From contig CAYJVR010000005.1 of NCBI GenBank assembly GCA_964373715.1, forward strand, positions 46,805 through 110,804: a DNA stretch of 64,000 nucleotides, written 5' to 3'. Under the pieces are notes generated by a model. That model searched no databases. It saw only the letters and a program-made list of their open reading frames with translations, and was not told the origin of the DNA. Positions 22,076 through 64,000 of this stretch are shown here, piece by piece. Position numbers and translations under genes: made by a program. Numbering within the stretch: position 1 is the stretch's first letter; the number at the start of each line of letters is the position of its first letter. The stretch is from an uncultured Planctomycetia bacterium. Its GTDB lineage: Bacteria; Omnitrophota; Gorgyraeia; 1-14-0-20-64-10.

Positions 22076-22079
22076 GTCT

Positions 22080-36516: not shown

Positions 36517-36601
36517 TCAAGCCTCCAAATTCCAAGTGGGCCGCCGGAGAAAACCTCTCCGGGCGGCCCACTTTTTGTGAACAGGTTTCCCTTTATCGGG
36601 T

Positions 36602-37369: not shown

Positions 37370-37461
37370 GGCTAAAAAAAACTCCTCCTTTTTTATCTCT
37401 TCTGATTGACCAGCTCTGGGTTTTGGAAGCTGCTGGGGTAAAGATTCTTATATCACGAAAG

Positions 37462-37482
37462 GAAGCCTTCGGTCAAGGCCTT
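37462..37482 (-). terminator. Weak intrinsic-terminator-like hairpin GCCTT-cggtc-AAGGC about 13 nt past the stop of the 37492..38043 gene, flanked by A/T runs on both strands (possibly bidirectional)
   Basis: Read directly: gaagccttcggtcaaggccttttaggcttttt. The stem is only 5-6 bp. Confidence 0.3.
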
Positions 37483-37491
37483 TTAGGCTTT

Positions 37492-38043: not shown

Positions 38044-38059
38044 TCTATGCGCCCTCTTT

Positions 38060-38650: not shown

Positions 38651-38704
38651 AATAACTGCCGTTCCACGGACGAACAGACAAACTTCCCTTAGGAATGGAT
38701 ACGA

Positions 38705-41510: not shown

Positions 41511-42036
41511 GGAATGTACTTAAAGGAACCGTGGCCTTCTGCCACTCGGTGGTCAGCTTGCCCGCCGGCAGATATTTGCCGATCTCTTCCGACTTCACCG
41601 AATCACCGACTTCGTCCCAATGCCTATCCGCGACACCAAGCACAAAATTCTCGCCGCCCGTCATCCCTTTGACCCACAGCGTAATCGTCTGGAACGTAGT
41701 GGCGTCGAAATAGCGGGACCCGGCTTTCAGCAGAGTGTAGTAGCCGCACCACCCGCCGGAATCGTACGGCCCTCCCTTGGCCTTTTTATCATACTTCACC
41801 ATCAGCGCTCCGGCCCCTTCATGAACCTGTTCTTTGACCCGAAGAGCCAAGGCCCGCGAGGGCTCCTGAACGTAGGTGTTTGACCGACCGCCCATTTTGT
41901 TGGCGGAACCTTCAAAATCGTCTATGACCTGCATCGCATGGGCGGACCCGATCCCCCACAAGAGAAAACCCGCGATAGAAAAAACAATGCCGAAAAACCG
42001 AACCGATTCTTTTCTCATGGCGTTTATTCTCCCCAA
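41401..42036 (-). CDS. Secreted protein, single CBM-like module paralog, 211 aa (start probably at 42018)
   Basis: GGWCGYYTLL ... LWVKGMTGGENFVLGVAD ... EWQKATVPL ... GTIYVDDVTLE. Confidence 0.7.
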   Translation of the reverse strand: MGRINAMRKESVRFFGIVFSIAGFLLWGIGSAHAMQVIDDFEGSANKMGGRSNTYVQEPSRALALRVKEQVHEGAGALMVKYDKKAKGGPYDSGGWCGYYTLLKAGSRYFDATTFQTITLWVKGMTGGENFVLGVADRHWDEVGDSVKSEEIGKYLPAGKLTTEWQKATVPLSTFLVDLKELASIAICFEGSVLPGGAGTGTIYVDDVTLE

Positions 42037-43358: not shown

Positions 43359-43389
43359 CCCTCCTGCCCCCTGTCCCGCGTCTCTTGTC

Positions 43390-45707: not shown

Positions 45708-45733
45708 GTAAAAAGCCGGAATGTAGTTTCCGG
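45708..45733 (-). terminator. Rho-independent terminator for the giant-gene operon, overlapping a -10-like TATAAT (45699-45704) for the downstream 764-aa gene. Minus-strand stem CCGGAA-ACUACA-UUCCGG followed by CUUUUU
   Basis: Read directly: plus strand ...gtaaaaagccggaatgtagtttccgg.... It lies about 80 nt past the stop of the 2437-aa gene. SD-like AAGGGG sits 7 nt before the ATG at 45678. Confidence 0.55.
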
Positions 45734-45814: not shown

Positions 45815-48800
45815 TTAGGCGAAGACCGCCAGGTAAGTTTTGCCCTTCAGATCCTGAAAAGTCATCAGGCCCAGAAGCTTGACGCCCGCGTCTTCATAGC
45901 CGCGCAGGGCCAGCAAAATAACGGCGGCGGGATTGACCCTCTGCACATCGTCCAGCCAAATCTCCATCAGAGGAAGATCCAGCGGATTAGCCACAGTCTG
46001 ATCCATCCCTAAATCCTTGAAGATAACGCCCGGCTTTTGATACTCCTCCGAAGGCTGCAGCGGAATGGCCACCACGCGGATCAGCGCGCGCAGATCATCC
46101 GGAAGCTCTCCGCCGAATTTTCTCTCCAAGCTGGACACCAAAGAACTCTGGGAATAAACATTCACCGAAGAGGGGATCTCTCTCACCCAGACGGTGTTTG
46201 CCCCGGAAGGAATCCGAGCCATCTGATCGGGGGTAAGTGTTTCTAAAAATTCCTCAACCGAAATCCGTTGAAGATCTTCCAAACCGGCGGAAGGGGAGGA
46301 CCGGTCTTGACGGTTAATACGGTACAAAACGTATGCGGCCAAACCACCGAAGGCGGCTCCCCCCAACGCCCAACTCCACCAAGGGATATCGAGAGAGGAA
46401 ATCTGAGCCTCCTCGGCAACCGGAACCACCGCGCCGTCTCTGGGCAGAACAACCTGGACAGGAACGGGAACCGGCGGAACAATGGCCACGTCATGGCTAC
46501 GGAAGGTCACCTCCAACCGTCCCATCTCCTCGTTGTAAACCACTCGGAGTTCCTTAACAACGGGAATCTGCCGGGCGCCAACCCATTCGAAAACAGCGGG
46601 AAGGCGAGGGCCGGTTTCGTCTTTCTTGCCGCCCAACGCGGCCTCCCCCTTGGGCCCGTAAGTAACCAAGCCTCCCCGATAAAGTGTCCCGAAAATCGTT
46701 CTGCCGGCGCCATCCACACCTTCCGGCTCAAAAGGAAGTGGACCATCCGTTCCATCCACTTTTTTGTTGTAGGTCGCAATCGGAATCTCCCGAGTGATCA
46801 CGCCAATCAGAGACTCTCCCTGATAGGTCAGGTAGGCAACCAACCCATGCGTCGGAGCAAGGGCTCTCTTGGCATCGTTCGGATCGGTCCGGATAACAAG
46901 CCCCAGACGAGCCCCGCGGGTGTCAACTGTCAGGCCGTCCGAAACCACCCGGTAAGGACCGGTGACCAAGTCCCCGACCGGGCCGATCGTGTAAACCGAA
47001 TAGGTTTGACGGCCTTCGGCATAAGGAGCGCGCCCGGAAATCTTGACGGTCCGCTCAACGGGAAGAAGAATTCCGCCCTTCTCGACGAAGCGCAAACCCT
47101 TGGCCCATCTATCGCCCGATTCAAAAACCGGATCCACGAGCCAGACCTGCTGCGTGCTGGCGGTCATCACCGGCACAATCTCCCCATCTTTTCCGTGGAC
47201 CCTGACATAACCGAGGAGGTTCGCGCCCGGGCCGAACGGGTCAAGCACGTTTTGCGCCGCGGGCAGAGACACCGGGAAGAGACTCGGGGAGACCAACGGC
47301 TCCCCATTCTTGTCTCTTTCCTTATCTTGCGCCAGGTGGATTTTTAGCCTATCCCGCTCCGCCTCCAATACCTTGGCATGCGCGCCCAACCCCTGCCCGA
47401 TCAAACCGGAGAGATCCACACCGACCGCTCCGCGCAAAACAGGAAGGGTCGGAGGCCCCCGGCGCAAATCCCTCAAAAGAAATTCCATCAGCTCTATCCG
47501 GCGCTGTTCCTCGAGTAAAACCGCCTTGTTGACGGCGGCTTGGGCAATTTTAGCCTGATCGACCGTCTTGGCATCAAGAAGCTGGACTTGAGCCTTCTTC
47601 ATGCCGATCTGGACCTCCCACACCCGTTCAAGGTAACGGAGCGATTCCCGCATTCTGGAATAATCGGGGGAAGCACCCTGGGCGGCGAGATCCGCGCGCC
47701 CCTGCGCGATCTGAAGAGCGAGCTGGTCCGCCTCCTGCTGAAGACGCCCCTTTCCCCGCGCCTGAAAAGAGGAGGAAACCGCTTCGATCTTCATCGCGTC
47801 TGGAACCGGCGCCGCCACACCCGGGAAAACCGAAGGCATCAGCCCTTCCCAGCCGAACAACCCGGGAGAATTCTCGTTGATCATGATCCTTCCGGCCACA
47901 TGGGTAAAGGCACTCTGCTGGTAACCGCTCTGGGCCGCCGCCGCCTGATCCCGGTAGCGGGCGGTTTGTTTGGTCTGATAATCAACCCCTTTTCTGCCTT
48001 TTTCCAGACGGGCCTGCTGGTACTGAAGACCCTCGCTCGCTTTGGCTAAGCGGTTTTGCTGGTAAACTACCCCTTGCTGCGCGCTGCCCAACTGCCGGGT
48101 GAAATAATTCACACCTTCCATCGCGTCAAGCATCGCTTTTCTCTTGGCCGATGGATTGTTGCCGACCGGCATACGCAGAGCATCCACATGGGCTTGTTTG
48201 GCCTGATTCAGCTGAAACTGCATGTTCGCCTCCGCCTGCAGAGCCTGCCGAAGCGCAAACTCCGCCTGCATCATATCCACAAGCGCTCCACGGATCGCGA
48301 TCTGTGCCGCCACAACTTCGGTCTCGGCCTCCCTCACCCGGCCCGGCTGCGCCGACAGTTCCTGATAAGCGAGATTCATGTTGACATACGCCTGCTGGAC
48401 CTCCAACAGGCTGAGCGCCGCTCCGCGGAAAGCGGTGCCGCTGCCTAAAAGGTCCTCTCCAGGCACCGTCACCGACGGAGGCAGCGGCAGCCCAATGCTG
48501 TCGAGCCCCTGAAGATTCGCGAGCCGGTCCTCCCAGCGCTTCACCTCTTGCTGTTCCTGCTGCTGCGCCAGATGAACCCGTTTCGCATCCCCCTGCGCCG
48601 GCATCGGAATGCTCGCCTGCGCTTTGGCCTGAGCAAGCTGCGCCTGCGCCACAAGGAGGCAGGCAGCATTAATCTCCTTCTGCGCTTTGGCCTGAGCCGC
48701 CTTGTCATCTGGAGGAACCAATACAAGGGCCCGGCGGGCCTGAGTTTCTCCCTGGAGCGCCTGAAGCACGGGAATCTGCAGCGGCAGCAGCTTCGCCTGA

Positions 48801-51800: not shown

Positions 51801-53128
51801 TTCTTGGAAGAGGTGCCGAAAACATCCTCGCCGTACCCCTGTTGGTGGCTTCCCATCAGAACAACAGCCGTCTCATAGCCGGCCTTCTTTAACTCTTTTG
51901 CCTTCTCAACGGCGGCCTCACTGACGCCGACCGGGACAACCTCCGTCTGCAGCTGTTTGATCCGCCGCTTCGTATCGGAATTCTTCCAATTCAGGTTGAC
52001 CGCATCGCCCGCTTCTTGAGACAGCCGCTTCTCGATAACCGCGACAAGTTCCGGATAGAAACTCTCAAAGATCATTTCGGTGAGGGTATCCATCCTCAAG
52101 CGGGTCCCCCAACGCTGGCGCAGCTTTTCCTTAAACCGGTCAAACGCCCCTTCCGAGAAAGAGCCCGGGCGCAGCTCCTTCTCAAGTTCATCGAGATAAA
52201 AATAAAGCTGCTCCCTGAGTTTTCGGGAGGTCATCCCCTCCTGGGAAACAGCCTTTTGGAGGCGCCCAGCCAGATTTTCGGAGAACCGTTTAGACCAGCG
52301 TTCGGCCTTTTCAATTTGAGCGTCCCTCTGGAAATTCCCCAGAGAAACCAAGCGGTTCATGTAGGTCCTCTGAACAAGCTTGAAAAAGCGCTCCTCGAAA
52401 AGAGTCTGGAGGAAATTCCTCATCTTCTCCTCTTCGGACTTCCCCGAGAAAGCGGCCCATCCCTTGTCGTTTAAGACACCCGCGCGCATGTCGAGGAGAC
52501 GGTTCACCGCCGCCTCCAAACGGCCTTCTTCCAGTGTTCCAAAGTAAGAGTTCTCCCGCAGCCACCGGGACACCGCATTCCGGTCGGCAAAAAAGTCCTC
52601 AAGGAGCTCCCTGAAAGGACGCTCGGAAAGCTGCCCTGATTGGAGAGGCGGCGTACGAAGATATTGAATGAAGGATCCTTCGGAGATCCCTTGGGCCAGA
52701 TCACCGGCAATCCGGCGGTCTCTCTCCACATTGTCCCGGGCAAGCTGTTCTTCGGAATTCTGTGATTGTTGTCCGAAGGAGAGCAGAACCGCTTTCTTCC
52801 CGCGGGGATCCTGGACCAAAATAAAATCCCGGTAAGCCCAGCTTTGGGCGTCGGCTCCCAGAGCCGGAATATCGGCCTGGACTTTCCGGGCTGCCAGAGA
52901 GCCTTTCAAAGAAGCGTTGAGTTCCTCGAGGCCGGCCCCCTGCTCCCCCACCTGGATACCCCTTAAGGTATCCGACGTTTCCGATGAGGCAAAGACAAAA
53001 GGGTCCTGAGCCAGGCTGAAAGCGGCGATGAGCGAGGAAGAAACAATTTTTAAGAAAAGAGGGCGCTGAGTCATCTCTCCCCCGTCACGCCAAGCTGTCC
53101 AGGTAAGCCTGCACCTTCTGAAAATCAA
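45815..53128 (-). CDS. Giant (2437 aa) secreted, membrane-anchored protein. It has five tandem repeats of about 105 aa, a long Q/A-rich coiled-coil region, a conserved periplasmic C-proximal module, a TM helix and a cytoplasmic tail; the probable start is the Met at 53074
   Basis: Signal peptide MTQRPLFLKIVSSSLIAAFSLA. Repeats WRPT..G.PI ... G.TAY.LP ... YGQLVA.DP ... Y.TVA.L encoded at about 49600-51100. K/E low-complexity run (KEKEKEKKEGK, 51165-51200). The conserved module GLVTYGPKGEAALGGKKDETGPRLPAVFEWVGARQIPVVKELRVVYNEE (about 46400-47150) is shared with the next two genes. TM helix WWSWALGGAAFGGLAAYVLY. Confidence 0.8.
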   Translation of the reverse strand: MIFRRCRLTWTAWRDGGEMTQRPLFLKIVSSSLIAAFSLAQDPFVFASSETSDTLRGIQVGEQGAGLEELNASLKGSLAARKVQADIPALGADAQSWAYRDFILVQDPRGKKAVLLSFGQQSQNSEEQLARDNVERDRRIAGDLAQGISEGSFIQYLRTPPLQSGQLSERPFRELLEDFFADRNAVSRWLRENSYFGTLEEGRLEAAVNRLLDMRAGVLNDKGWAAFSGKSEEEKMRNFLQTLFEERFFKLVQRTYMNRLVSLGNFQRDAQIEKAERWSKRFSENLAGRLQKAVSQEGMTSRKLREQLYFYLDELEKELRPGSFSEGAFDRFKEKLRQRWGTRLRMDTLTEMIFESFYPELVAVIEKRLSQEAGDAVNLNWKNSDTKRRIKQLQTEVVPVGVSEAAVEKAKELKKAGYETAVVLMGSHQQGYGEDVFGTSSKKFHIIETRLSPDSPRLFSVTGAPVEQIFDGLPAGVAALLKSEKIASVVRPVLANRIETEFELEGKETEALARQQLETVSSSGALQEPQESFLLRWAPVMRRLGYAAAVMAGLFGLGAMTANAPAIGADSLNGGVPNDLQLGVLGDPLDNMDIQLGSAVELPQNRGEQAVVAPVVLGAGDNSLAVAQDVLNLAVVEKEQKQEPTKEKEKEKKEGKTIVQGGNGPLPGPLAGPGIGPGGVPPPEIIVTWRPTGQDNRPIALKFDAVPDPSGFLKTRYDGTTAYILPHERTYGQLVAMDPVTGQYQTVAHLRSDGSIGSAGVDRDDPPADMVKLLPAPPPDHLKNWRPTMEEGRPVNLSSLKTKTGHNGLLTITLNDGRTGYLMPHRSAYGQVVAVDPATNDYATVAYLNRAGALSAVAGGDSSITPAILRNLPPPEKAAANWRPTVDGVQQIKLKNLETEVGPNGILKTMYHGQSAYVAPYAGRYGQLVAINPIWNQYETVAFILRDGSVEGVGSNQAPLAQSLVSLLPPPPENPLKGWRPTAEGAPIKLSFAAEEKANGLLATTYQGQTAYLLPDQMRYGQLVVLDPFQNEYITAAYLMRDGKITPAGRDASILSPVLLEHLPVPPANPYDGWRPNVQGKPIEIKNIKTEVSPNGILTAPVDGRTAYVLPHPAESGQLVALDADSKKYVGVGLIDQTGLVRKIAGDSSTVSAAMLANLPQAPAANGLAEERPADKGAGQVPFVQTQDKTYAASQILPAYEKMTALQEQAVVSQIQKARDLAGQLQKVAPADRPVLEKQLRAETARVFLTAKDNQKALAVFLDRVVAQLEPLAPQDPYFQSTRGFFQESQQKAEIQMKMLEEQELLSQDFLQNGRLLLPQRGGLLSGPAAQDVPFVTVSAGKLEPAAQKELQGRIQARLARLWELRGDLLKIDQQRYQREAAYAAQAAQDHPGVGQAQRRLNEALDRQRLAVDLSEQQAAQRDWRSADTQKRVAQQERDGLARQAKLLPLQIPVLQALQGETQARRALVLVPPDDKAAQAKAQKEINAACLLVAQAQLAQAKAQASIPMPAQGDAKRVHLAQQQEQQEVKRWEDRLANLQGLDSIGLPLPPSVTVPGEDLLGSGTAFRGAALSLLEVQQAYVNMNLAYQELSAQPGRVREAETEVVAAQIAIRGALVDMMQAEFALRQALQAEANMQFQLNQAKQAHVDALRMPVGNNPSAKRKAMLDAMEGVNYFTRQLGSAQQGVVYQQNRLAKASEGLQYQQARLEKGRKGVDYQTKQTARYRDQAAAAQSGYQQSAFTHVAGRIMINENSPGLFGWEGLMPSVFPGVAAPVPDAMKIEAVSSSFQARGKGRLQQEADQLALQIAQGRADLAAQGASPDYSRMRESLRYLERVWEVQIGMKKAQVQLLDAKTVDQAKIAQAAVNKAVLLEEQRRIELMEFLLRDLRRGPPTLPVLRGAVGVDLSGLIGQGLGAHAKVLEAERDRLKIHLAQDKERDKNGEPLVSPSLFPVSLPAAQNVLDPFGPGANLLGYVRVHGKDGEIVPVMTASTQQVWLVDPVFESGDRWAKGLRFVEKGGILLPVERTVKISGRAPYAEGRQTYSVYTIGPVGDLVTGPYRVVSDGLTVDTRGARLGLVIRTDPNDAKRALAPTHGLVAYLTYQGESLIGVITREIPIATYNKKVDGTDGPLPFEPEGVDGAGRTIFGTLYRGGLVTYGPKGEAALGGKKDETGPRLPAVFEWVGARQIPVVKELRVVYNEEMGRLEVTFRSHDVAIVPPVPVPVQVVLPRDGAVVPVAEEAQISSLDIPWWSWALGGAAFGGLAAYVLYRINRQDRSSPSAGLEDLQRISVEEFLETLTPDQMARIPSGANTVWVREIPSSVNVYSQSSLVSSLERKFGGELPDDLRALIRVVAIPLQPSEEYQKPGVIFKDLGMDQTVANPLDLPLMEIWLDDVQRVNPAAVILLALRGYEDAGVKLLGLMTFQDLKGKTYLAVFA
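49600..51100 (-). repeat. Intragenic tandem array: five repeats of about 105 codons each in the 2437-aa gene (WRPT ... TAY.LPH ... YGQLVA.DP ...)
   Basis: The repeat units are recognisable in the translation and in the DNA (for example the recurring ...ggccgcca... motif encoding WRP at each unit start). Confidence 0.7.
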
Positions 53129-56100: not shown

Positions 56101-56819
56101 TGCAGTTCGCCGTACAGCGCGGCCCGGTTCTTCAGCGGAGCGGTCAAGAACTTCTGCTGAATCGAAAGGACCTGCTTTTCCTGAGAGGCGACCGGCGTCC
56201 GCTCCAGCGCAAGGTTCGCGTACTCGGAGTCGGCCCGGCTGGCGTACCCTTTAGCGAGCTGAAGCTGGATCCAGACCGCCCATTGACGGTTCAATTCCAG
56301 AGGAACATCGGCCCGTTTGGATTGCTCCTCCAGCATCTTGATCTGGAGGTTTCTCAATGCGGTATCGTCGATCACTCCACTGTGCACAGCGGCAAGCAGA
56401 GGGTCCACCGCCGGAAGAGGGACCGCCTTCTTCGGCGGCTCCGGCGGTTTGAGTCGTCCCGGGTCCTGAAAAACGACGTTGCCCTTGGGATTATCGGCCG
56501 GAGGAGGATTCCCTGTCGGCAGGTAGGTAAACCAAAGAATTCCTCCGAACAAAAGAGCAAGAGCCGTCGCGGAAAAAATCCCCCAGCGTCTCCCGTTCGA
56601 ATTCTCTTCGAGACCGCCCAGGGAATCGATCGGAGCGACCATCTGCTGCGCGGGAGCCGGCCGGAGCTGGTTGACCAGATCCTGCAAACCGCTGTCGGTC
56701 TGCTCAGCCACCTGGGTGGTTCTCAAAGCAAAAACGGGGGTGCTCTGGCCTAAGCTGACGCTTAAGACCAACACCCCCACAAGAATTTTTCTTCCGATAC
56801 CAAGCCGTTTCATACCCAT
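53085..56819 (-). CDS. Giant (1244 aa) secreted protein with an N-terminal TM anchor, a long helical region, the conserved C-proximal module, and a C-terminal domain about 70% identical to that of the upstream giant; start probably at 56813
   Basis: Signal and TM segments. Module GGPVTYGPKGETYFGGKKNEPGEKLPILYERTSARILLAQPEIRIVFDE (about 53700-54450). C-terminus ... DAGYVAWAPFVAKSGVPVAVLT ... KVQAYLDSLA. A GGGGGAAGG SD-like purine run precedes the start. Confidence 0.8.
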   Translation of the reverse strand: MGMKRLGIGRKILVGVLVLSVSLGQSTPVFALRTTQVAEQTDSGLQDLVNQLRPAPAQQMVAPIDSLGGLEENSNGRRWGIFSATALALLFGGILWFTYLPTGNPPPADNPKGNVVFQDPGRLKPPEPPKKAVPLPAVDPLLAAVHSGVIDDTALRNLQIKMLEEQSKRADVPLELNRQWAVWIQLQLAKGYASRADSEYANLALERTPVASQEKQVLSIQQKFLTAPLKNRAALYGELQRAIDDQLSAEIGYWEHKLKLDTWSDRADIKFREGIVGSVKAREESLARFREKIGIHVDQLKEMRLLYADLGKLGSYLPLPGIQPEGVSLLDIREMVPVIAPPAKALTKEEKEGVIASARDRIDRLLDLESQMTEADDTIASLYYYWTARQNKLGYIAGRAFDSAEYHEKLNSVRAAGRKVLAAQRTLVKATTPDGQLFAQLALDDANRKHLEAMIGQAKFRVDQLAVQVGKTTSAKLLPVWIGSDDKVALAIAQIDADGLKTVQEVFGSLTELGMPTFPLAVQEPRSSLLNFQALVPPVVIGLPTPADEAEARKLYEKLLKVPGQLKQQRVAVIQAEADKLSEEAHKEYGLYQAAHPELAKRKGYMSGISYENWIDVMHGSDVKKAQSNVRKKLIVLVDMEESGKGFLEARKAYEQALFDQIDAELTRVGIRLEYREDRLALYQRKSNIFFNHIPTWMELVAADRSIQTQLNDQKKFYQELQKAGIPLPALGAAVSTHPSADSLQLLLGDKGSTPLSGVVWVQKGEKQIAIPVISGEGQWMWLSRPRYLPEGGDRKISTTRVIIPKGLPGEGRSIPKERLLAVAAFTEFGPKEYVIAVQGDWRYEEQSGYYWVVGGTGIYSVGPEAIRLGLLAKGDPKDPAKLLPPTQGFVGYVTYQVRPVRGPKGETILEPVPVGVTTRHVSLEVYNQKGKDGKEAPIPLASLVFDEEGRMQFGRLYVGGPVTYGPKGETYFGGKKNEPGEKLPILYERTSARILLAQPEIRIVFDEVMGRPILSMTHHPVESLPQAGKEEDLPVATVAEGLRRLPGELEGAVLLQTGGLSRDLRELSVGPDSNISMAAAILWADIQQRTAAEAIPAVRQVQVGFPSADVETPRVFLFDETQYPGQDAGYVAWAPFVAKSGVPVAVLTNRLTVAEGLNRLFRESGLREDQYRVVSVEAYGGDREAALRSLEESFSGMAGFVPIHPSVGFEVMKKILEEMGFVLYAAEFKVDFQKVQAYLDSLA

Positions 56820-56838
56820 CCTTCCCCCAACCTCGGCG

Positions 56839-59800
56839 TTACGCCAAGCTGTCCAGGTAGGACTGCACCTTCTGAAGGTCTACTTTGAAATTTTCGCTGA
56901 TAACGACAAATCCCATCTGCTCCAGAACACGCTTCATCATCTCGAACCCTACTGTCGGCTGCACCACCGGGAAAGAGGAGGCCCCCACGAGGAGGTTCTC
57001 TAACGCAGCCAGGGCTTGTTGGCGGTCTCCGGCAAACTCCTCCAGGGAGACCACGGCATAGCTATCCGCAGACAAGCCTGTTTCACGGAAGAGTTTCTTT
57101 AACCCTTCCGCCACAGCCGCCTTTTGCGTAAGAACCGCCACAGAGGCGCCCGACTTCGCGACAAACGGCGCCCAGGCAATATATCCCGCGTCCGTGCTTT
57201 CATAGAGCGTCTCATCGAACAAAAGACCCGTCAGCTCCACCGCATCCGCAGGCCGGAAATCAGCCCGTATCGCCTGGACCGCCGGAACGGCGTCCGCTTC
57301 AAGACCGGTCTGAATTTCGCTCCGCAGAGCGCCGGCTTCAATCCCAAGATCCAGATCAGGGCCGTGGGCCATTTGGCCCAGCGCCCGGCTGAGCTCTCCA
57401 ACCTGACCAGGAATGATCGCCGCTCCCCGCAGTTCCACCGACAACTGCTGAAGAAGAGGCACGGTGGCGACGGTTTCTGTTGTCCGCGCCAGCTCCTCCA
57501 AACCGGCGCCGGGAGTGGTACCAGGCGGAGTGGTATCGTCAGGTTCAACCGGAGGAGCCGGCGGTTCATCCGTGCCGGAAGATTCAACCGGCGGAGCGGC
57601 TGTTTGATCCGCGGCGGTCGTATCGGTCGTGGTTACCGGCGATTGCGCCGAGGTGCCGGTTCCCTCGCCTTGTCCGCGGCGCAGAATCCTCCGGCCGATG
57701 ATCCAGCCCAAACCCAATGTCGCCAAACCGGCAACCGCCAATCCGCCGATGGTGAGAAGCGACCACCCCTGTCCTTCAATTTCTTCTTGAGCCTGCGGCT
57801 GCTGAATGGGCTGAATGGGAGCCGGGGCCTGCGGAAGCGCATGGTCATGGTTTCTAAAGGAGACGATCAACAACTGGGCCTGCTCGTCATAAACAATCCG
57901 GACCTCTTTGATAACCGGAACGGTCCGGGCGCCGACCCGCTCAAAAACAGGAACAAGGCGCTGGCCGGCATTGTCCTGACGGCCGTACTGGGCCACACCC
58001 TGGTCACCGTATGTCACCAAACCGCCCGTGAAAAATTCGCCGTAAGAGGGCCTGCCGTCAGCGCCGGGCCCGATTGAGGAGAGACGGATCGGTGCTTCAC
58101 GGCCTTCCACCCGCCGGTTGTAGGCCTCCAGAGGAATTTGCTGGACCACGACACCGATCGGCGCGTATTCCCGGCGCGTTCCGCCGGTGGCGGTCGGCAT
58201 CATCCGAACCGCATAGGCGGCGAATCCGATCAGGCCGTGCGTCGAAGGCAACTGCCTGGTTGGATCGGCCGGATCAGGCCGGATCACGGTTCCCAACCGG
58301 ATCGCCTCGGTATTCGAATCAAGTGTGATGCCCCCCTCCAGCGCCTCCACACGGTAATAGCCGGACCTGAGCTGATACGGCTTCAGCCCCCAGGAGGTCA
58401 CATAGAGCCGCTTGCCTACCGTTCCCCCTCTCTGCGGACCTTCCAAAGCTCCGGTGTCAGACCGAACCTGCTGGAAATATTCAGGCAGAATGAAGTTCCC
58501 TTCGGCCGGCTCGCCGCGCCGGATCCGGAGCATCCGGTGCTCCGCAGCCCAATCGTTCACTTCTCCGAGAACCGGAGGACCGGCCAGCCAAACCCACCAG
58601 GCTCCCGGCAGCACCAGCATCGACCGTTCATCTCCGTGCACGCGGGCCGTGCCGACCCCCAATTGGGTGGCATCCAACACCAGTTTCAAAGATTCCGGCG
58701 AAGCAGAAGAGGTGGAGGATCCAGTCGGCTTATCGAAATCGATCAGCGGAAACCCGTTTTCCCTGAACCGGGTATTGAGCTGAACCCGGGCATCCAGCTC
58801 GTTCTTCCGGAGAGTCAAAGCTTCGGCCTGCGCCCGGAAGAAATCAATCTCTTCCCGGCTGTAGGGGGCCGAAGGAGCGCTCGCCGTCCGCACCCGCTCG
58901 TTCAGCACCGCCACCCTGGCGGTGATCCGGGTTCTCTCCCGGTTGGTCACTTCGACGATTGCCAATTCGTATCGGTCCACCGCGGCTGTGAAGCTCTCCT
59001 GATTGGTCGCGCGAACAATCGCCTTTTCCGCCAGAGCAAGCACCTTTCGGGCCTCATAGAGCCGCGTTTCGTTCCGCATGTCGGCCGCATCGTCCCCAGC
59101 CCACCTGCCTATCGCATTCCTGGCCAAAAGCCGCTCGATCCGCTCTGCATCTTCGTTGAGTTTTGCGATCTCTAAATCCGCAACGGCGGCCTTATCATCG
59201 AACATTTCCATCTGAATGTTCCACGCGTTGATCTCCAACTCCGCGATCTGTTCCGCCTCCAATTCCTCCGTCAAGCCGATCTGTGCCGGCTGAATCAGGG
59301 CCTGAATATCGATCGCCCCTGAGATCGTGTCCGTGGTCTGAAGTATGGAGGCCGGGAACCCGAGTTGGCGAAGGATCTCATCCAACTGCTGCTGCTTCAA
59401 AATCAGGCGCCGCTGAACCTGGACCTTCCTGAGTTCATATTGGGCGTCGCTGTGTTCCTGTCTGCTGGTCGCTCCTCTCTCAAGCAGCCAAGCCTGGCGG
59501 TTAAACTCCGCTTGCCGATAGGTGACTCGAGCGCCGGCCAAGAGAACCAAGGAACCGGTCTGTTCGATGATCGCGGCATCCAAGCGCTGTTGGGCCTGCA
59601 AAAGATTGGCCGGCCTGCCGGCGGCTCCCCGAGGGTGATCGATCCCGCCGGCTACCAGCAGTATCCACTGCTGGGCCGTCAACACGTTCTTGAGGGAAGT
59701 AAACTGGGTGGCCTGAGCATTGAGGAAGGCTGCCGCTTCCCGTTCAGAAAGGGAAATGGCACGACGCGCGTACAAGTCTGCCGCCCTCTGATAAATCCGG

Positions 59801-62800
59801 CGCCGGATGTCGATGTGCACATCCAGCCGGTCCTTCTCGATCTCTAAGATGTTGAAAAGGTGCAGGCGGACCGACCGAAGCAAACGGTTTTTCTCTTCAT
59901 CGGTGAGCCGCGGCATCTGACCGGGCAAAGGAGGCACGGCATCCCGGATGTTGGCTCCAATCTCTACGCTGGACATCCGGGCCACCGGAAGCGGCATATA
60001 GCCGCCGATCTGGGCCAGGTCCGCATACATCCGGGCCAACTCCTGCAAAAGCCTGAGTTGGTGGCCAGAACCCTGAAAAGAAGCGCCGATCAGATCGGCC
60101 TCCTCCCGGGAGATCGAATTCAAACGGAGCAGCCTCTGGGCCCGATCGTTCTGCTCCGTGAAAAAGCGCTGGACCGCCTCCGCGCTCCGAATGGCGGCCT
60201 CAATTTGGGCCCGAATCGAATCGGTCACCTCTCCGGGGCGCGGGTCCGTTCCGGACAGGTAGGAGCGCAGAAGAGCCAAGACCTGCCCCTCCGCCGCAAT
60301 CAACGGCCCCATCTCCACGGCGGCCATCGCCTCCTGGAGCTCCTCGAGGCTGATCGCGCCGCTGCCGCGCAACCTTCGATACCGCTCCAGATTGGCCTGC
60401 AAGAAACGCAGACGGGGCTGGGCAAAGGCAGCCTGATTGGCCAGCAGGGTTCCCTGCAGATCCCGGACGGACTGAGTGGTCGGATCGGGCGGAATCTGAG
60501 CGTTGGTCTCAGGGGGGTCGACCAGCGAAGCGGCGGTCAGCAACGCGGCGCCGGCAAAAAACGCTTTCAAGAATTCCCGCCGGTCCGGATTCAACGTATC
60601 CACAGGGGGATCCCCTTCAAGACCGGCGACCGGCGCGGCCCCCATCGGCCGGGCGAGAACCACTTCTAACTTATTAAGGACATCCTTCGAAGCGATGATC
60701 AGATGGTCTTTACCCGCTTGACGAAGAATCCTGTTGATCGCGCGCAGATGCGGCTGCGCGTCGGTAATCAACGCCTCGCGGCCTCCCCAACTGGGCGGAA
60801 AGAATTGAATGCCGACGAGTGTGACCGTCTTCATATCCGAAACTCGGCGGCTCTGGCTCAAGTGGAACGTCGGCGTATCGGCGATCGGCCCGACCGTTCC
60901 GTTCTGCTCGGCCAGCCAGACGGCGGATAAAGCCATCCGAGGATCAATGAATGTCCCCTGCAGAAGACGCTCCATGACCGCTAAATCGTTCAAAGTCTGA
61001 CCCGGCGCAATCTGGGCAGGACCGGCGAGGGCACCCCGGTCTATCTGAATCCGCTCGATCTGCCGGGCCAATGCTCCGCCTCTGTGCTGGTCAATATGGG
61101 CAAACATCAGATACCAGAGAAGTGCCTCGATTTCGGCGGGAGCATACGCCCCCACGACACGGCTGAACAAAGGAGACAACGTACCGGCGCTCAATAGATA
61201 GCTGTAGACGCTCGCCCCACTGGCGCCGGCGGTGGAAACCTCATTCCGGTCAAAAGCCTCCAACGCGCTCGTGATAGAGATAAAGAAATTAAGCTGCTGG
61301 TCACTGCTGAGGTGGGCCACATCCGCCAGAACACCGGAGATATCGGAAGCGGCTCCCGAACGAAGGACCGTGTTCGCCCGCTCCATCCCCATCCCCTTGG
61401 CAAAGAGCATCGCCCTCTGCATCGCGTCTTCGTCATCCCGCATCCGGAGCATCTCGTAGAGGAGTTTCCTCTCCAGCCACAGAGAGACCGCGGGCGAGGA
61501 GGGAAGTCCGGCCGGGTTGAGCAACATCATTTCATTGACGCCGGTATCCTCGGCCAGCGTCCTGCTCGGATAGGCCTCACGGGTCATGCGGCCGCTGTTA
61601 AGATAATTGAGCTCGGAGAGAACCCGGGTCCACGCCGGCTCGTTGGCCAGGCGCAGAGCCACGGTAATAGGAAGTGCGCTCGCGTCCGCCGCGGTCGCGC
61701 TGCGCTCAAAAAGGGTCACCTTCCCATAAGGCAGGCCGGGAGGTAGCGGACCGAACCAGAGGGGCCAATCCACATCATGGATCATCCCCTGGAACATCGT
61801 GACCGGCTGTCCCGCATTAGCGGCCAGGATACGGGCATCGAGGCTGTAGAGCAACGACCGGGTCGGGAGTACATTGTCCAGAGGCCTGATGATCAGCCGG
61901 AGAAGAACCTGATAGATGACCCATTTCGCGAAACCGGGGATCAGGGAGAGGCTCCGGATGCCGTCCCCGCGCCATCCCTCATCCACCCATTGATCCAGCC
62001 GGTAGCCGTCCTTCCCGTCAAAGCTGTGCCAGGAGCTGACCGCGGCCCGCAGGGCAAGGAAAAGGACCAGTCCGGTCGCCGCCGCCGTAATTAAAAGAGC
62101 CAAGGGGGTCGCCAGACCCAGGCCAACGAGAGCTCCCTTCAACAGCGTGAAACCGCCCGTGGCGGCCCACCACCCAATCCCAGCGCTCGCGGCGGTTCCC
62201 AAAACGCGGTTCAGGAAACGGCCGACCGGTCCCAGAGAATCCAACGCGTGGCTGAGGTGATAAAGTATGCCGTCAACGATCGGGAACCGGTGCGGCCTTA
62301 TCCCGGGATTGAACATGCCGGAATAGCGCATCTCCGGCGAGATAAACAGCCCGCCCCGCAAAGAGGAGACCCCTCCCCTGCCGCGCTGAGCCATCGTCCG
62401 GACGACCGAATCGGTGTCCGGCTGAAGATGGCTCTCTTGGCGCAGAAGCCACTCCACGTACGGCTCGGTCGAGCCGGAATCCAGATAGGCCTGGACCGGG
62501 TTGTCATGCGTCGAAGAGATCCGTATGCCCCCCATCGCGGTGGCCGGAGAGCTCCATCCCCACGACCGGCGCCGTTCATTCACCCGGTCCCGGAGACTGG
62601 CAGGAAGCAGATTATTCAAGAGGTAATGCGGCGTGGCATGGCCGTGATGATCCCGAAACCACATCATGATCCTCTGCTTATTGCCCAAACTCGGAACACC
62701 GGGATCATGCGAACCATAGTTCAGCGCGGTGATAAGGTCCGGCGGCTGGCCGGCGGCCGCCCGGTGCCCTTCCACGATCCGGACCATCACGTACTGCGCC

Positions 62801-64000
62801 GCCTGACGGTCCGCCTGGGGAACCTGCCTGAAGATGCCGCTGATCAAACCGACATAAATATCTTCCCATTCCGATTCCGGTATATTGGGGTTTTCGTCGT
62901 AACGGGCTGGGCTGGCGCCGCGGCCTAATTCGATCGTCCACTGCAGCAGATTCGGAATCTCCTGCAGGGCCGTCACACCTCTCTGCAGGAAATCCCTCTC
63001 GGAGCCGTTGGCATCCGCCTGCGCAATTTGTCCAATCGTTCCGGTGGCCCGCTCCACGAGGTCCTGCACATGTTCCGGATCGTAATCGTACCGGTAGCTC
63101 GAAATAATCGGATCGGCCCTGTTTTTCCAAAAGGAGATCGGCACCGGAGTCCGGAAGAACGGCTCCAGAGCAAAACGGGAGAGGGCGAAGAAACCCAGCA
63201 ATCCAAGCCAGCCAACCCCACCAGTAAAGAAAAGAGCAATGCCGATCCACAAAGGAGGAGAGGTGTAATACCATGCCCGGGAGACAACCGCCCGGGCTAC
63301 AGGAACAGCCCCAACGATCGCTCCTGTCACGAACCCGATTGCCGCGCCAACCGGCCCGCCGGCCAGGAATCCGGCGGCGGCTCCCCACAAACCGGCAATA
63401 AAGCTGTTCTTGGCACGAACCCGGATCGGTTCCGGTCTATCCGCATCAGGCCAGCCTTCGGCCCACCGTCTCAACGTAAGAATATCGGAAATCCGGTAGA
63501 GGGCCTGCCGGATCTGCCCGCCTCTCCAGGCATTGGCGTCCCATCCCAGCCGGGGTCCCATATGGAAAAAGCCGTTAGTGTTCCAATTTCCGGCTGCCGC
63601 CGGCGCGGAGGCGGCTTCCGTCCCCTCTTCCAATCCGGACCGAGGGCCTCTCACGCGGTCACTGCGCCGCCACCTTGCCATATCCAGATAAGCGTTTCGG
63701 GCAAGCTGGGACTGATTTCTCCTGGCGGCCGACACCGCATCATGCGCCTGCATCACTTCAGCCGCCGATCCCTGCTGCCACGGGGTCACACCGCGCAGAA
63801 CGACATTCCCCTGCCCGTCCATCTCCGGAGCAACCCGGTAAATCCCGTGCAGGATGGCCAAGGCCAAACCCATGCGGGCGGATTTCGGCGTCTGGACCAG
63901 CGATGGGCCGAACCAAGCGTCAAACTTGCTGGGATGGTCCGATATGCGGGTTTGTCCATCCACCCCCGATTCAAAATTGATCCAGGTGTGAAGACCGACC
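56839..64000 (-). CDS. Giant protein, 5'-partial (the frame is open beyond 64000; at least 2387 codons in window). It has a polytopic membrane N-terminal region, a long helical/coiled-coil region, the conserved periplasmic module, a TM helix, a P/T-rich linker and a conserved cytoplasmic C-terminal domain
   Basis: The track ORF begins at a GTG at 63963, but the reading frame continues without a stop to the window edge. Multiple TM helices early (FIAGLWGAAAGFLAGGPVGAAIGFVTGAIVGAV ...). Module GGLVTYGDQGVAQYGRQDNAGQRLVPVFERVGARTVPVIKEVRIVYDEQ (about 57850-58600). TM helix GWSLLTIGGLAVAGLATLGLGWIIG. C-terminus ... DAGYIAWAPFVAKSGASVAVLT ... KVQSYLDSLA. Confidence 0.8.
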   Translation of the reverse strand, partial: VGLHTWINFESGVDGQTRISDHPSKFDAWFGPSLVQTPKSARMGLALAILHGIYRVAPEMDGQGNVVLRGVTPWQQGSAAEVMQAHDAVSAARRNQSQLARNAYLDMARWRRSDRVRGPRSGLEEGTEAASAPAAAGNWNTNGFFHMGPRLGWDANAWRGGQIRQALYRISDILTLRRWAEGWPDADRPEPIRVRAKNSFIAGLWGAAAGFLAGGPVGAAIGFVTGAIVGAVPVARAVVSRAWYYTSPPLWIGIALFFTGGVGWLGLLGFFALSRFALEPFFRTPVPISFWKNRADPIISSYRYDYDPEHVQDLVERATGTIGQIAQADANGSERDFLQRGVTALQEIPNLLQWTIELGRGASPARYDENPNIPESEWEDIYVGLISGIFRQVPQADRQAAQYVMVRIVEGHRAAAGQPPDLITALNYGSHDPGVPSLGNKQRIMMWFRDHHGHATPHYLLNNLLPASLRDRVNERRRSWGWSSPATAMGGIRISSTHDNPVQAYLDSGSTEPYVEWLLRQESHLQPDTDSVVRTMAQRGRGGVSSLRGGLFISPEMRYSGMFNPGIRPHRFPIVDGILYHLSHALDSLGPVGRFLNRVLGTAASAGIGWWAATGGFTLLKGALVGLGLATPLALLITAAATGLVLFLALRAAVSSWHSFDGKDGYRLDQWVDEGWRGDGIRSLSLIPGFAKWVIYQVLLRLIIRPLDNVLPTRSLLYSLDARILAANAGQPVTMFQGMIHDVDWPLWFGPLPPGLPYGKVTLFERSATAADASALPITVALRLANEPAWTRVLSELNYLNSGRMTREAYPSRTLAEDTGVNEMMLLNPAGLPSSPAVSLWLERKLLYEMLRMRDDEDAMQRAMLFAKGMGMERANTVLRSGAASDISGVLADVAHLSSDQQLNFFISITSALEAFDRNEVSTAGASGASVYSYLLSAGTLSPLFSRVVGAYAPAEIEALLWYLMFAHIDQHRGGALARQIERIQIDRGALAGPAQIAPGQTLNDLAVMERLLQGTFIDPRMALSAVWLAEQNGTVGPIADTPTFHLSQSRRVSDMKTVTLVGIQFFPPSWGGREALITDAQPHLRAINRILRQAGKDHLIIASKDVLNKLEVVLARPMGAAPVAGLEGDPPVDTLNPDRREFLKAFFAGAALLTAASLVDPPETNAQIPPDPTTQSVRDLQGTLLANQAAFAQPRLRFLQANLERYRRLRGSGAISLEELQEAMAAVEMGPLIAAEGQVLALLRSYLSGTDPRPGEVTDSIRAQIEAAIRSAEAVQRFFTEQNDRAQRLLRLNSISREEADLIGASFQGSGHQLRLLQELARMYADLAQIGGYMPLPVARMSSVEIGANIRDAVPPLPGQMPRLTDEEKNRLLRSVRLHLFNILEIEKDRLDVHIDIRRRIYQRAADLYARRAISLSEREAAAFLNAQATQFTSLKNVLTAQQWILLVAGGIDHPRGAAGRPANLLQAQQRLDAAIIEQTGSLVLLAGARVTYRQAEFNRQAWLLERGATSRQEHSDAQYELRKVQVQRRLILKQQQLDEILRQLGFPASILQTTDTISGAIDIQALIQPAQIGLTEELEAEQIAELEINAWNIQMEMFDDKAAVADLEIAKLNEDAERIERLLARNAIGRWAGDDAADMRNETRLYEARKVLALAEKAIVRATNQESFTAAVDRYELAIVEVTNRERTRITARVAVLNERVRTASAPSAPYSREEIDFFRAQAEALTLRKNELDARVQLNTRFRENGFPLIDFDKPTGSSTSSASPESLKLVLDATQLGVGTARVHGDERSMLVLPGAWWVWLAGPPVLGEVNDWAAEHRMLRIRRGEPAEGNFILPEYFQQVRSDTGALEGPQRGGTVGKRLYVTSWGLKPYQLRSGYYRVEALEGGITLDSNTEAIRLGTVIRPDPADPTRQLPSTHGLIGFAAYAVRMMPTATGGTRREYAPIGVVVQQIPLEAYNRRVEGREAPIRLSSIGPGADGRPSYGEFFTGGLVTYGDQGVAQYGRQDNAGQRLVPVFERVGARTVPVIKEVRIVYDEQAQLLIVSFRNHDHALPQAPAPIQPIQQPQAQEEIEGQGWSLLTIGGLAVAGLATLGLGWIIGRRILRRGQGEGTGTSAQSPVTTTDTTAADQTAAPPVESSGTDEPPAPPVEPDDTTPPGTTPGAGLEELARTTETVATVPLLQQLSVELRGAAIIPGQVGELSRALGQMAHGPDLDLGIEAGALRSEIQTGLEADAVPAVQAIRADFRPADAVELTGLLFDETLYESTDAGYIAWAPFVAKSGASVAVLTQKAAVAEGLKKLFRETGLSADSYAVVSLEEFAGDRQQALAALENLLVGASSFPVVQPTVGFEMMKRVLEQMGFVVISENFKVDLQKVQSYLDSLA

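What the first reader, a model, noticed from the sequence alone, without database searches (positions are those of the whole stretch)
45815..64000. Operon of three consecutive giant envelope-protein genes sharing a conserved periplasmic module, with a tandem duplication of the cytoplasmic tail domain
The genes 56839..>64000, 53085..56819 and 45815..53128 are separated by only about 10-20 nt, have SD-like purine runs, and end with a clean intrinsic terminator at 45708-45733. This is one transcription unit longer than 18 kb. All three products contain the same module of about 250 aa (..YGxxGxA..G...PxFE.VGAR..PV.KE.R.VY.E..) placed just before a TM helix. The first two genes also share a C-terminal domain of about 170 aa that is roughly 70% identical (...DAGY[IV]AWAPFVAKSG ... 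KVQ[SA]YLDSLA), and the DNA is still about 75% identical over 53085-53420 and 56839-57180. The third gene has a different tail but adds five tandem repeats of about 105 aa (49600-51100). I recognise no family for the shared modules. The architecture, with a membrane-embedded N-terminus, long coiled coils and a conserved juxtamembrane module, suggests a giant cell-surface or trans-envelope structure
Basis: seen in the sequence. Interest (0 to 1): 0.8.

Follow-up and report, generated by a model that had tools for sequence, protein, structure and literature searches.

The report
Omnitrophota operon of giant envelope proteins
Three back-to-back very large genes from an uncultured Omnitrophota bacterium encode related membrane proteins built from previously undescribed parts, and in several genomes they sit next to sugar-binding and amino-sugar utilisation genes, so they probably form a cell-envelope scaffold for capturing glycans, though this has not been tested.

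Summary

The family is very rare: 35 hits among 1.84 billion representative proteins. Every member that carries a source name (six) is from Candidatus Omnitrophota. Pfam, NCBIfam and PDB sequence searches found nothing significant.

In four other genomes or contigs, a giant gene is likewise followed by a stalk-plus-module gene or genes. In three genomes the array is followed by a CBM9/CBM30 gene, here ahead of a GlcNAc/chitobiose cluster.

Most likely these are a heteromeric extracytoplasmic envelope scaffold linked to glycan capture. That function is inferred, not shown.

Side finding: all giants here share a leader, a 13-fold enriched [AS]GLEE junction motif, and a C-terminal alanine.

The parts
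56839..64000 (-). Gene A, C-terminal 2,386 codons. The full gene has 4,997 codons and its start lies about 7.8 kb beyond the window end.
   Evidence: The reading frame stays open to the window end. Logan contigs L001/L007/L008 call a 4,997-aa product, P0002.
60499..60633 (-). Junction inside A: the motif PVAGLEGD, then a Tat-like signal-anchor DRREFLKAFFAGAALLTAASL..TNA|Q. This starts a B-like unit (aa 3737-4997).
   Evidence: The unit aligns with B, P0005 and P0007 over about 900 aa.
58663..60435 (-). A stalk: three ~200-aa helical repeats, each ending in L..L...G.P.P....S.LD
   Evidence: Alignment. hhalign between repeats gives 97%, 89% and 56% probability.
57826..58671 (-). A beta-module (aa 4388-4669)
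57694..57768 (-). A membrane helix after the module (WSLLTIGGLAVAGLATLGLGWIIG), followed by RRILRR
56842..57453 (-). A tail type 1: three helices plus a Rossmann-like alpha/beta domain ending in YLDSLA. It is preceded by an AGLEE motif at about 57493-57504.
53085..56819 (-). Gene B (1,244 aa, or 1,242 from the second ATG). Order of parts: leader, SGLQD/GGLEE motifs, anchor helix (56520-56585), stalk (54573-56339), beta-module (53739-54554), tail type 1 (53088-53693). There is no helix between module and tail.
   Evidence: The orthologue P0004 is 51% identical over 1,042 aa.
45815..53074 (-). Gene C (2,419 aa, ATG at 53074). Order of parts: leader plus AGLEE, five 96-97-aa repeats (49625-51070), helical region (47240-49597), beta-module (46472-47236), helix (46322-46387), AGLED, tail type 2 ending in YLAVFA (45818-46291).
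   Evidence: The orthologue P0006 is about 42% identical. The C tail is not detectably related to tail type 1.
45716..45733 (-). Weak intrinsic-terminator-like hairpin followed by a T-run, downstream of C
38705..45684 (-). Conserved downstream neighbours: a CBM9/CBM30/CBM11 protein, three CBM30 proteins, a 316-aa protein, and a tandem-PDZ protein with a signal peptide. These are probably functional partners.
   Evidence: Pfam hits. The same gene order follows the C-like gene in MAG GCA_023818695.1. A CBM9 gene follows the module protein P0022 in GCA_964373295.1.

Best explanation
A, B and C are co-transcribed paralogues of a rare large-protein family whose named members are all Omnitrophota.

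Each unit is built in the same order:
1. a Sec-type leader;
2. an [AS]GLEE motif;
3. a Tat-like RR signal-anchor helix;
4. a stalk of three ~200-aa helical repeats;
5. a ~270-aa all-beta module of apparently new fold;
6. in A and C only, a second membrane helix;
7. an alpha/beta C-terminal cap ending in alanine.

A carries such a unit fused behind a ~3,700-aa polytopic membrane protein.

I infer that stalk and beta-module lie outside the cytoplasmic membrane. I further infer that the three paralogues assemble through these shared parts into a heteromeric envelope or cell-surface scaffold. That scaffold would work with the adjacent secreted CBM9/CBM30 proteins, the PDZ protein and the GlcNAc/chitobiose import and catabolism genes to bind and process glycans, either chitin-like material or prey cell wall.

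Shown: homology, architecture, rarity, lineage and synteny. Inferred: topology, assembly, co-transcription and function.
For: - Paralogy: E 1e-34 to 1e-55.
- Packing: gaps of 10-19 nt with SD-like runs; a 296-nt AT-rich region with TTGACG-17-TATTAT lies upstream of A.
- Triplicated helical stalk.
- Confident all-beta model without a PDB neighbour.
- Charge bias places stalk+module on the non-cytoplasmic side at 13 of 13 flanking helices.
- The family has only 35 representatives among 1.84 billion proteins. All six members that carry a name are Candidatus Omnitrophota.
- A giant gene followed by stalk-module gene(s) recurs in L006, L009 and L012. L010 has the reverse order, module protein first.
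- CBM9/CBM30 genes directly follow the array in three genomes, at only 25-50% protein identity between orthologues.
- GH94, NagA, NagB, a ROK kinase and a sugar ABC importer lie downstream in the window.
- The literature links Omnitrophota giant proteins to carbohydrate import genes and proposes roles in prey adhesion and wall digestion (10.1101/2023.11.21.568195).
Against: - No domain has a known function, and no binding or catalytic residues were identified.
- Topology is unresolved. A Sec-like leader in front of a Tat-like anchor is topologically awkward.
- B and P0006 lack the helix between module and tail, so the tail would sit on different sides of the membrane in different paralogues.
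- Tail type 1 also caps a nucleotide-sugar multi-enzyme protein and follows a J domain, which suggests a cytoplasmic location.
- A terminator-like hairpin and a promoter-like TGGTATAAT separate C from the CBM genes. The link to glycans therefore rests on synteny only.
- No expression data are available.
Confidence: 0.45

Rival explanations
1. Polyprotein or cassette reading. The large ORFs are strings of independent units that are cut at, or recombine at, [AS]G-LEE junctions. Cleavage would free N-termini that begin 5-15 residues before a Tat-type RRxFLK signal. It would also free the tail domains, so the gene products act as several smaller exported and cytoplasmic proteins.
For: - The motif G[LM]E[ED] occurs 90 times against 6.8 +/- 2.6 expected in 38 proteins. 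Position -1 is restricted to A/S/T/V/G.
- The motif sits after leaders, just before Tat-like anchors and before tails.
- A's C-terminal unit is the size and architecture of free-standing B, P0005 and P0007. It is preceded by a tail-like ...LEVVLA plus AGLEGD.
- Orthologues carry different tails after the motif: C versus P0006.
- Cleavage would remove the Sec-leader/Tat-anchor topology conflict.
- Others have raised possible processing of Omnitrophota giants by C39 or S8 peptidase domains.
Against: - No protease is encoded in the operon, and no peptidase domain was found.
- There is no proteomic evidence.
- The motif also occurs inside folded tail domains, for example xGLEEVxxYLxSLA in the last helix. 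Not every copy can therefore be a cleavage site.
- It could be a favoured helix-capping or linker sequence that spread by domain shuffling.
Confidence: 0.2
2. Cytoplasmic-face scaffold. The leader is cleaved or acts as an anchor, the second helix returns the chain to the cytoplasm, and stalk, module and tail are cytoplasmic. They would then organise the membrane-tethered multi-enzyme giants encoded nearby.
For: - Simple sequential insertion after a Sec signal predicts this topology for B.
- Tail type 1 is fused to NTP-transferase, GHMP kinase and epimerase domains (P0026) and lies next to a DnaJ domain (P0014).
- The other two giants in the window carry the same leader in front of sugar-metabolism enzyme domains or enzyme-like sequence that would need cytoplasmic cofactors.
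Against: - All 13 flanking helices would violate the positive-inside rule.
- The RRxFLK motifs with AxA sites look like genuine export signals.
- In A, C, P0005 and P0007 the tail would then end up outside.
Confidence: 0.15
3. Periplasmic adaptor-like conduit. The N-terminal anchor, long helical hairpins and membrane-proximal beta domain would work like membrane-fusion proteins of tripartite export systems, bridging the inner and outer membranes for secretion.
For: The layout is broadly similar: anchor helix, long helical region, beta domain. Motifs such as RYRRLRGSGAISLEELQEA recall adaptor hairpins, but that resemblance is from my memory only.
Against: - No HlyD, adaptor or lipoyl Pfam hit, even at E = 1.
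- No PDB sequence or fold match.
- A regular-expression scan for the hairpin motif found none in A or B.
- The beta module is C-terminal and is followed by a second helix.
- No pump or outer-membrane partner is encoded in the array.
Confidence: 0.07
4. Artefact: assembly-collapsed repeats, pseudogenes or chance ORFs.
For: None found.
Against: - Contigs from at least two sequencing runs agree to 1 base in 28 kb.
- The copies are far too divergent to collapse.
- Intact orthologues exist in other genomes at 25-51% identity.
Confidence: 0.01

Closest known systems
Giant membrane-anchored proteins of Omnitrophota (Archaeovorin and Dockerin types, West-Roberts et al. 2023; multi-enzyme and repeat-scaffold classes, Nielsen and Lui 2026)
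   Same: - Same phylum, judged from named relatives.
- Signal peptide plus membrane helices.
- Several very long genes in a row.
- Location next to solute-binding, ABC-import and glycoside-processing genes.
- Mostly unannotatable sequence. In the 2026 catalogue, 137 of 916 long proteins have no Pfam hit.
   Different: - Size is 1.2-5 kaa, below those catalogues' thresholds (at least 10 or 30 kaa).
- No SecA_DEAD, C39, dockerin, TSP3, glycosyltransferase or hydrolase domains.
- The beta-module, triplicated stalk, tail domain, leader, GLEE motif and C-terminal alanine do not appear in the sections I read or in term searches of the 2026 paper.
Periplasmic adaptor (membrane-fusion) proteins of tripartite pumps, HlyD/AcrA type
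   Same: An N-terminal anchor, a long alpha-helical periplasmic region and a beta-rich membrane-proximal domain.
   Different: - No sequence or fold similarity was detected.
- Domain order differs, and a second helix and a cytoplasmic tail are present.
- No pump partner is encoded.
Dual Sec/Tat-targeted membrane proteins (actinobacterial Rieske protein Sco2149; from my own knowledge)
   Same: An internal twin-arginine motif precedes a membrane helix that exports a C-terminal domain, after earlier hydrophobic segments.
   Different: Here only one hydrophobic segment precedes the RR motif, where the Rieske case has an even number. The dual-targeting mechanism therefore does not transfer directly.
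Polymorphic proteins whose variable C-terminal cassettes follow a short conserved motif (CdiA VENN, Rhs PxxxxDPxGL; from my own knowledge)
   Same: A short conserved peptide ([AS]GLEE) precedes C-terminal domains that differ between orthologues.
   Different: - The tails have no conserved polar or catalytic residues.
- No immunity-like genes are present.
- The motif also occurs at N-termini and internally.

Membership tests
Omnitrophota giant proteins (Archaeovorin / Dockerin type, West-Roberts 2023) | Gene longer than 90 kb (product above 30,000 aa) | tested here: not met
   A is 4,997 aa, B 1,242-1,244 aa and C 2,419 aa.
Omnitrophota giant proteins (Archaeovorin / Dockerin type, West-Roberts 2023) | SecA_DEAD domain, or GT/GH/methyltransferase/NUDIX sets, or dockerin plus TSP3 repeats | tested here: not met
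   No significant Pfam or NCBIfam hit in A (in-window part and full length), B or C.
Omnitrophota giant proteins (Archaeovorin / Dockerin type, West-Roberts 2023) | Omnitrophota origin, with numerous membrane helices and/or a signal peptide | tested here: met
   All six named relatives are Candidatus Omnitrophota. A has about 20 hydrophobic segments, and all three have signal-like leaders. The lineage of the window itself is inferred from 42-51% identical syntenic orthologues.
Omnitrophota giant proteins (Archaeovorin / Dockerin type, West-Roberts 2023) | Type II/IV secretion-like locus upstream; carbohydrate import and hydrolase genes downstream | tested here: inconclusive
   Downstream genes are present: CBMs, an ABC importer, GH94, NagA and NagB. 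Upstream of A there is another large gene of at least 964 aa, and the contig ends there.
Periplasmic adaptor / membrane-fusion proteins (HlyD family) | Profile match to HlyD_D23, HlyD_3 or Biotin_lipoyl_2, or fold match to a solved adaptor | tested here: not met
Periplasmic adaptor / membrane-fusion proteins (HlyD family) | Adjacent inner-membrane pump and outer-membrane factor genes | tested here: not met
   None in the array. The only transporter in the window is a sugar-importer type, SBP_bac_1 plus BPD_transp_1.
Tat (twin-arginine) exported proteins | S/T-R-R-x-F-L-K motif, a moderately hydrophobic h-region and an AxA cleavage site | tested here: met
   A aa ~178-205 reads NRRDFLKAG...RKVQA|Q, and aa ~3748-3778 reads DRREFLKAFF...TNA|Q. 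P0005 has TRRDFLKGL...ANA|H. The Pfam TAT_signal hit is weak (E 0.06). B has only RRWGIF.
Tat (twin-arginine) exported proteins | Signal located at the N-terminus of the exported polypeptide | tested here: not met
   The signal is always preceded by a Sec-like leader plus GLEE, or, inside A, by 3,700 residues. The feature would be met only if cleavage occurs.
Short-chain dehydrogenase / Rossmann NAD(P)-binding domains (for the tail) | Gly-rich dinucleotide-binding loop and catalytic Tyr/Lys | tested here: not met
Polymorphic toxin systems (CDI / Rhs) | A toxin C-terminal domain with an adjacent immunity gene, and a TPS/Rhs/VENN core | tested here: not met
   No such Pfam domains in A, B or C. 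The genes following each tail are the next paralogue or a CBM gene. A TPS domain occurs only in a neighbouring gene of L006.

The most novel reading that the evidence does not exclude
Large and giant proteins of Omnitrophota may follow a common grammar that has not been described:
- a conserved Sec-like head (h-region, AxA site, invariant LR, then [AS]GLEE);
- cargo units that often begin with a Tat-type RRxFLK signal 5-15 residues after a GLEE motif;
- an alpha/beta cap ending in a C-terminal alanine.

On this reading [AS]G-LEE would be a processing site or a recombination joint, making these ORFs bacterial polyproteins whose pieces are sorted to different compartments. The A-B-C operon would be a compact example. 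Its beta-module would be a new extracytoplasmic fold.
Probability: 0.2. Interest if true: 0.8.

Novelty: new variant of a known kind. Interest (0 to 1): 0.55.

Why it matters
How Omnitrophota make, export and use their enormous proteins is an open question. The published catalogues start at 10-30 kaa, and most of that sequence cannot be annotated.

This operon offers smaller, tractable representatives of 1.2-5 kaa with clearly delimited parts:
- a beta-module with no solved structural neighbour;
- a triplicated stalk;
- a swappable C-terminal cap;
- a short, strongly enriched junction motif that sits exactly where export signals begin.

If the motif marks cleavage, it would explain how giant ORFs are handled and would make the question testable by N-terminomics. 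The conserved linkage to CBM proteins and amino-sugar catabolism also gives a concrete hypothesis about the material these ultra-small, host-dependent bacteria attach to or feed on.

Tried and rejected
- **Word-indexed search with B (5.8 billion proteins):** returned only B itself.
- **Profile of the 20 leaders:** only two short hits, because the profile is too short for that database size. Uninformative.
- **Module patterns against GTDB species representatives and JGI metagenomes:** no confirmed relatives. The 13-sequence module alignment was too divergent to make patterns.
- **AFDB fold library:** unavailable.
- **Literature search for AGLEE/GLEE motifs:** only irrelevant hits.
- **PDB sequence-profile searches** with module+tail, the whole B-like unit, the C repeats, the tail and the module: nothing below E 0.03.
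- **hhalign of tail type 1 against ten other C-terminal domains:** all below 2% probability. The tails are different domains and share only the terminal ...L..xA ending.
- **Regular-expression test for adaptor-like hairpin motifs:** negative in A and B.
- **Rfam and TRF on the region:** negative.
- **Assembly collapse, pseudogenes and recent duplication:** considered and rejected.
- **Toxin/immunity cassette reading of the variable tails:** rejected. There are no catalytic residues and no immunity-like genes.
Full report
**1. What is in the sequence**

Three long ORFs lie head to tail on the minus strand.
- The A-B gap is 19 nt and is preceded by GGGGGAAGG. The B-C gap is 10 nt and is preceded by GGGGGAGAG.
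- C starts at ATG 53074 (2,419 aa), not at the TTG at 53128. The database copy P0003 has exactly this length.
- A does not start in the window. Its frame is open to position 64000. A Logan contig that is 99.994% identical to the window calls a 4,997-aa product.
- Upstream of A, outside the window, there is a 296-nt AT-rich spacer. It contains a TTGACG-17-TATTAT promoter-like site and a GC hairpin with a T-run. Before that lies another large gene of at least 964 aa.
- Downstream of C there is a 6-bp hairpin with a U-run. It is weak (-11.2 kcal/mol, z = -1.1). A TGGTATAAT box follows, ahead of the next gene.
- The array is therefore one compact unit of about 26 kb. Co-transcription is inferred from spacing only.

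**2. The shared blocks are real**

- blastp: A-B tail 48% over 244 aa (E 3e-55); A-B 27% over about 900 aa (E 3e-54); A-C and B-C 33-35% over about 275 aa (E about 1e-34).
It is 53% over the last 170 aa and 60% over the last 120 aa. DNA identity is 63% over the stated 340 nt, and 76% only in the last 123 nt. Of the last 150 codons, 44 differ synonymously and 65 non-synonymously. The duplication is therefore old.
- C carries five repeats of 96-97 aa (window 49625-51070) at 33-43% identity. TRF sees nothing at the DNA level.
- Collapse artefacts are excluded. Three Logan contigs from at least two runs carry the same A gene. The two retrieved have the same A-B-C order and differ at one base in 28,186.

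**3. Anatomy**

The region that A and B share is a repeating unit, clearest in B-like proteins.
- It opens with a signal-peptide-like leader ending in an AxA-type site, followed by an invariant LR.
- An [AS]GLEE motif follows.
- A hydrophobic anchor comes 5-15 residues later, preceded by RR. In A this is a textbook Tat motif, present twice: NRRDFLKAG...RKVQA|Q near the N-terminus and DRREFLKAFF...TNA|Q at aa 3748.
- A Pro-rich linker comes next.
- The stalk consists of three ~200-aa helical repeats, each ending in L..L...G.P.P....S.LD...L.P. hhalign between repeats gives 97%, 89% and 56% probability.
- The beta-module follows the stalk.
- In some members a W-flanked Gly/Ala-rich membrane helix comes next, followed by a basic cluster.
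- Another [AS]GLEE precedes the C-terminal domain.

A is a ~3,700-aa polytopic protein with about 20 hydrophobic segments, fused to one such unit. The junction reads ...LEVVLARPMGAAPVAGLEGD. C has the leader, an unrelated ~600-aa region, the five repeats, a weaker version of the helical region, the module, a helix and a different tail.

B has no helix between module and tail. Nor does P0006, the orthologue of C. P0005, P0007 and the A-like protein of L006 do have one.

**4. Structure**

- AlphaFold2 on a 13-sequence alignment models the module as all-beta with long hairpins (pLDDT 81, pTM 0.79).
- The tail alignment has no Gly-rich loop and no conserved polar residues. I read it as a binding or capping domain, not an enzyme.
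- Pfam, NCBIfam and PDB sequence profiles are negative for every part.

**5. Distribution and lineage**

- A profile of module plus tail found only 35 proteins among 1.84 billion representatives.
- Six of these carry names, and all are Candidatus Omnitrophota MAG proteins.
- No GTDB species representative encodes the module.
- Orthologues: B-P0004 51%, C-P0006 about 42%, and the A N-terminal region against P0019 and the L010 protein 32-33%.

**6. Conserved neighbourhood**

| Locus | Source | Gene order |
|---|---|---|
| L002 | MAG GCA_023818695.1 | C-like gene, CBM9/CBM30, three CBM30 genes, a 299-aa gene, PDZ, two small genes, NagB, DUF4954 (same order as window 34525-45684) |
| L012 | GCA_964373295.1 | 5,257-aa giant, module protein P0022, CBM9/CBM30 gene |
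| L006 | JGI contig | A-like, B-like (P0007), 1,972-aa TPS-domain protein |
| L009 | GCA_016196355.1 | A-like P0019, 2,874-aa stalk+module protein, enzyme-bearing giant |
| L010 | ENA contig | module protein P0013, then an A-like giant |

The pairing of a giant polytopic protein with stalk-module proteins, and its linkage to secreted CBM proteins, is thus conserved. Orthologues across these genomes are only 25-50% identical. Further downstream the window encodes a sugar ABC importer (one permease is fused to CBM30), NagA, a ROK kinase and a GH94 phosphorylase.

**7. Topology**

- At all seven anchors preceding a stalk, Lys/Arg are on the N-terminal flank.
- At all six helices following a module, Lys/Arg are on the C-terminal flank, and acidic residues face the module.
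- By the positive-inside rule, stalk and module are extracytoplasmic.
- Two problems remain. The Sec-like leader upstream of the RR anchor does not fit this topology unless it is removed or is not a true membrane span. The tail would be cytoplasmic in A and C but external in B.
- Tail type 1 also ends P0026, which carries a leader, NTP-transferase, galactokinase-like GHMP kinase and NAD epimerase domains. It also follows a DnaJ domain in P0014. That argues for a cytoplasmic location in those proteins. I could not resolve this with the tools available.

**8. Side finding that bears on the interpretation**

- All five giant ORFs in the window carry the same head: A, B, C, the 3,358-aa SIS/ACT/DUF4954 protein at 5943-16019, and an ORF starting near 5892 that runs off the window start.
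- G[LM]E[ED] occurs 90 times in 38 family proteins against 6.8 +/- 2.6 expected. Position -1 is limited to A/S/T/V/G.
- The motif is absent from the 20 ordinary genes in the window when a small residue at -1 is required. Without that restriction, two DGL(Q/E) matches occur, at 40902 and 22140.
- At least seven C-terminal domain types end in alanine (...YLDSLA, YLAVFA, ALSVLA, ALRSA, TLALQA...). Those tested against tail type 1 show no detectable relationship to it. Among the 20 ordinary proteins only 2 end in alanine.
- Orthologues can carry different tails after the motif: C versus P0006.
- These facts suggest cassette shuffling and/or proteolytic processing at the motif. I rank that as the main rival and as the most novel reading.

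**9. Comparison with what is known**

- Large and giant membrane proteins of Omnitrophota, often near carbohydrate import genes, have been described. They are proposed to act in prey adhesion and wall digestion (10.1101/2023.11.21.568195).
- A 2026 catalogue reports signal-peptide plus TM architectures and many proteins without any Pfam hit (10.64898/2026.06.07.730766).
- The proteins studied here are below those catalogues' size thresholds and lack their hallmark domains.
- Term searches of the 2026 paper found no occurrence of 'motif', 'chitin' or 'CBM'. The sections of both papers that I read do not describe the module, stalk repeat, tail, leader, motif or C-terminal alanine rule.
- I therefore class this as a new variant of a known kind.

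**10. Verdict**

The best explanation is an Omnitrophota-specific heteromeric envelope scaffold linked to glycan capture (confidence about 0.45). The polyprotein/cassette reading (about 0.2) and a cytoplasmic-scaffold reading (about 0.15) remain open.

Noticed in passing
window 5943-16019 (-), 1-5892 (-), and genes A, B and C; family proteins P0001-P0035: The motif [ASTVG]-G-[LM]-E-[ED] ('AGLEE') is enriched 13-fold (90 observed against 6.8 +/- 2.6 expected). With a small residue required at -1 it occurs only in the giant ORFs of the window. It sits after leaders, 5-15 aa before Tat-like RR anchors, and before C-terminal domains.
   Followed up: partly
window 15800-16019, 56721-56819, 52982-53074, ~5700-5892; L007 3193-3500: All five giant ORFs share an N-terminal head: basic n-region, hydrophobic stretch, AxA-like site (for example PVFA, PVWA, PAGYA), an invariant LR, a Q/E-rich stretch, then GLEE. 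Two subtypes exist: ...TVFAFTLTSxLPAGWA...DQTLRVQ, and ...PxFALRxxQVxEQ.
   Followed up: partly
window 5943-16019 (-): A 3,358-aa ORF carries the same leader in front of two SIS domains, an ACT domain and a DUF4954/left-handed beta-helix (GlmU-like) region. It ends in ...ATLALQA. It is a fused sugar-metabolism multi-enzyme protein sitting behind a secretion-like signal.
   Followed up: partly
window 1-5898 (-): Another giant ORF of at least 1,964 aa starts at about 5892 (MKTYRSNHIV...) and runs off the window start. It has the same leader and two GLEE-type motifs, and part of its sequence looks enzyme-like (not scanned against Pfam). The ORF list does not show it because it is open-ended.
   Followed up: partly
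C-termini of A, B, C, the 3,358-aa ORF, the L007 upstream gene, P0005, P0006, P0007, P0013, P0022 and P0029: C-terminal domains of at least seven types all end in a hydrophobic-x-x-hydrophobic-x-Ala carboxy-terminus. Those tested show no detectable relationship to tail type 1. Only 2 of 20 ordinary proteins in the window end in Ala. This could be a degron or a PDZ/tail-specific recognition signal.
   Followed up: partly
window 38705-39652 (-): A tandem-PDZ protein with a signal peptide and a lipobox-like FVAC, and no protease domain, is conserved in the same position in MAG GCA_023818695.1. It is a candidate reader of the conserved C-termini.
   Followed up: no
window 24709-28284 (-): The ABC sugar importer has unusual fusions. 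One gene joins a solute-binding protein (SBP_bac_1) to a permease. The second permease carries a CBM30 domain.
   Followed up: no
window 16057-24326 and 34525-37369 (-): A GlcNAc/chitobiose-type catabolic set is present: GH94 phosphorylase, ROK regulator/kinase, NagA-like amidohydrolase, NagB (glucosamine-6-P isomerase) and a DUF4954 hexapeptide protein.
   Followed up: no
L007 2897-3192 (upstream of gene A, outside the window): In the 296-nt AT-rich spacer, a TTGACG-17-TATTAT promoter-like site is followed by a GC-rich hairpin with a T-run (GCGCCCCGCATAGCGGGGAGCAGTTTTTTT) about 95 nt before the start codon of A. It may be a leader or attenuator, or the terminator of the upstream gene.
   Followed up: no
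L006 9490-15408: In a JGI contig, the B-like gene P0007 is followed by a 1,972-aa protein with a two-partner-secretion (TPS) domain. This suggests that secreted filamentous proteins are part of some versions of the array.
   Followed up: no
window 63963: The ORF tool lists gene A with a GTG start at 63963, although the frame is open to the end of the window. The listed 2,374-aa length is an artefact.
   Followed up: yes
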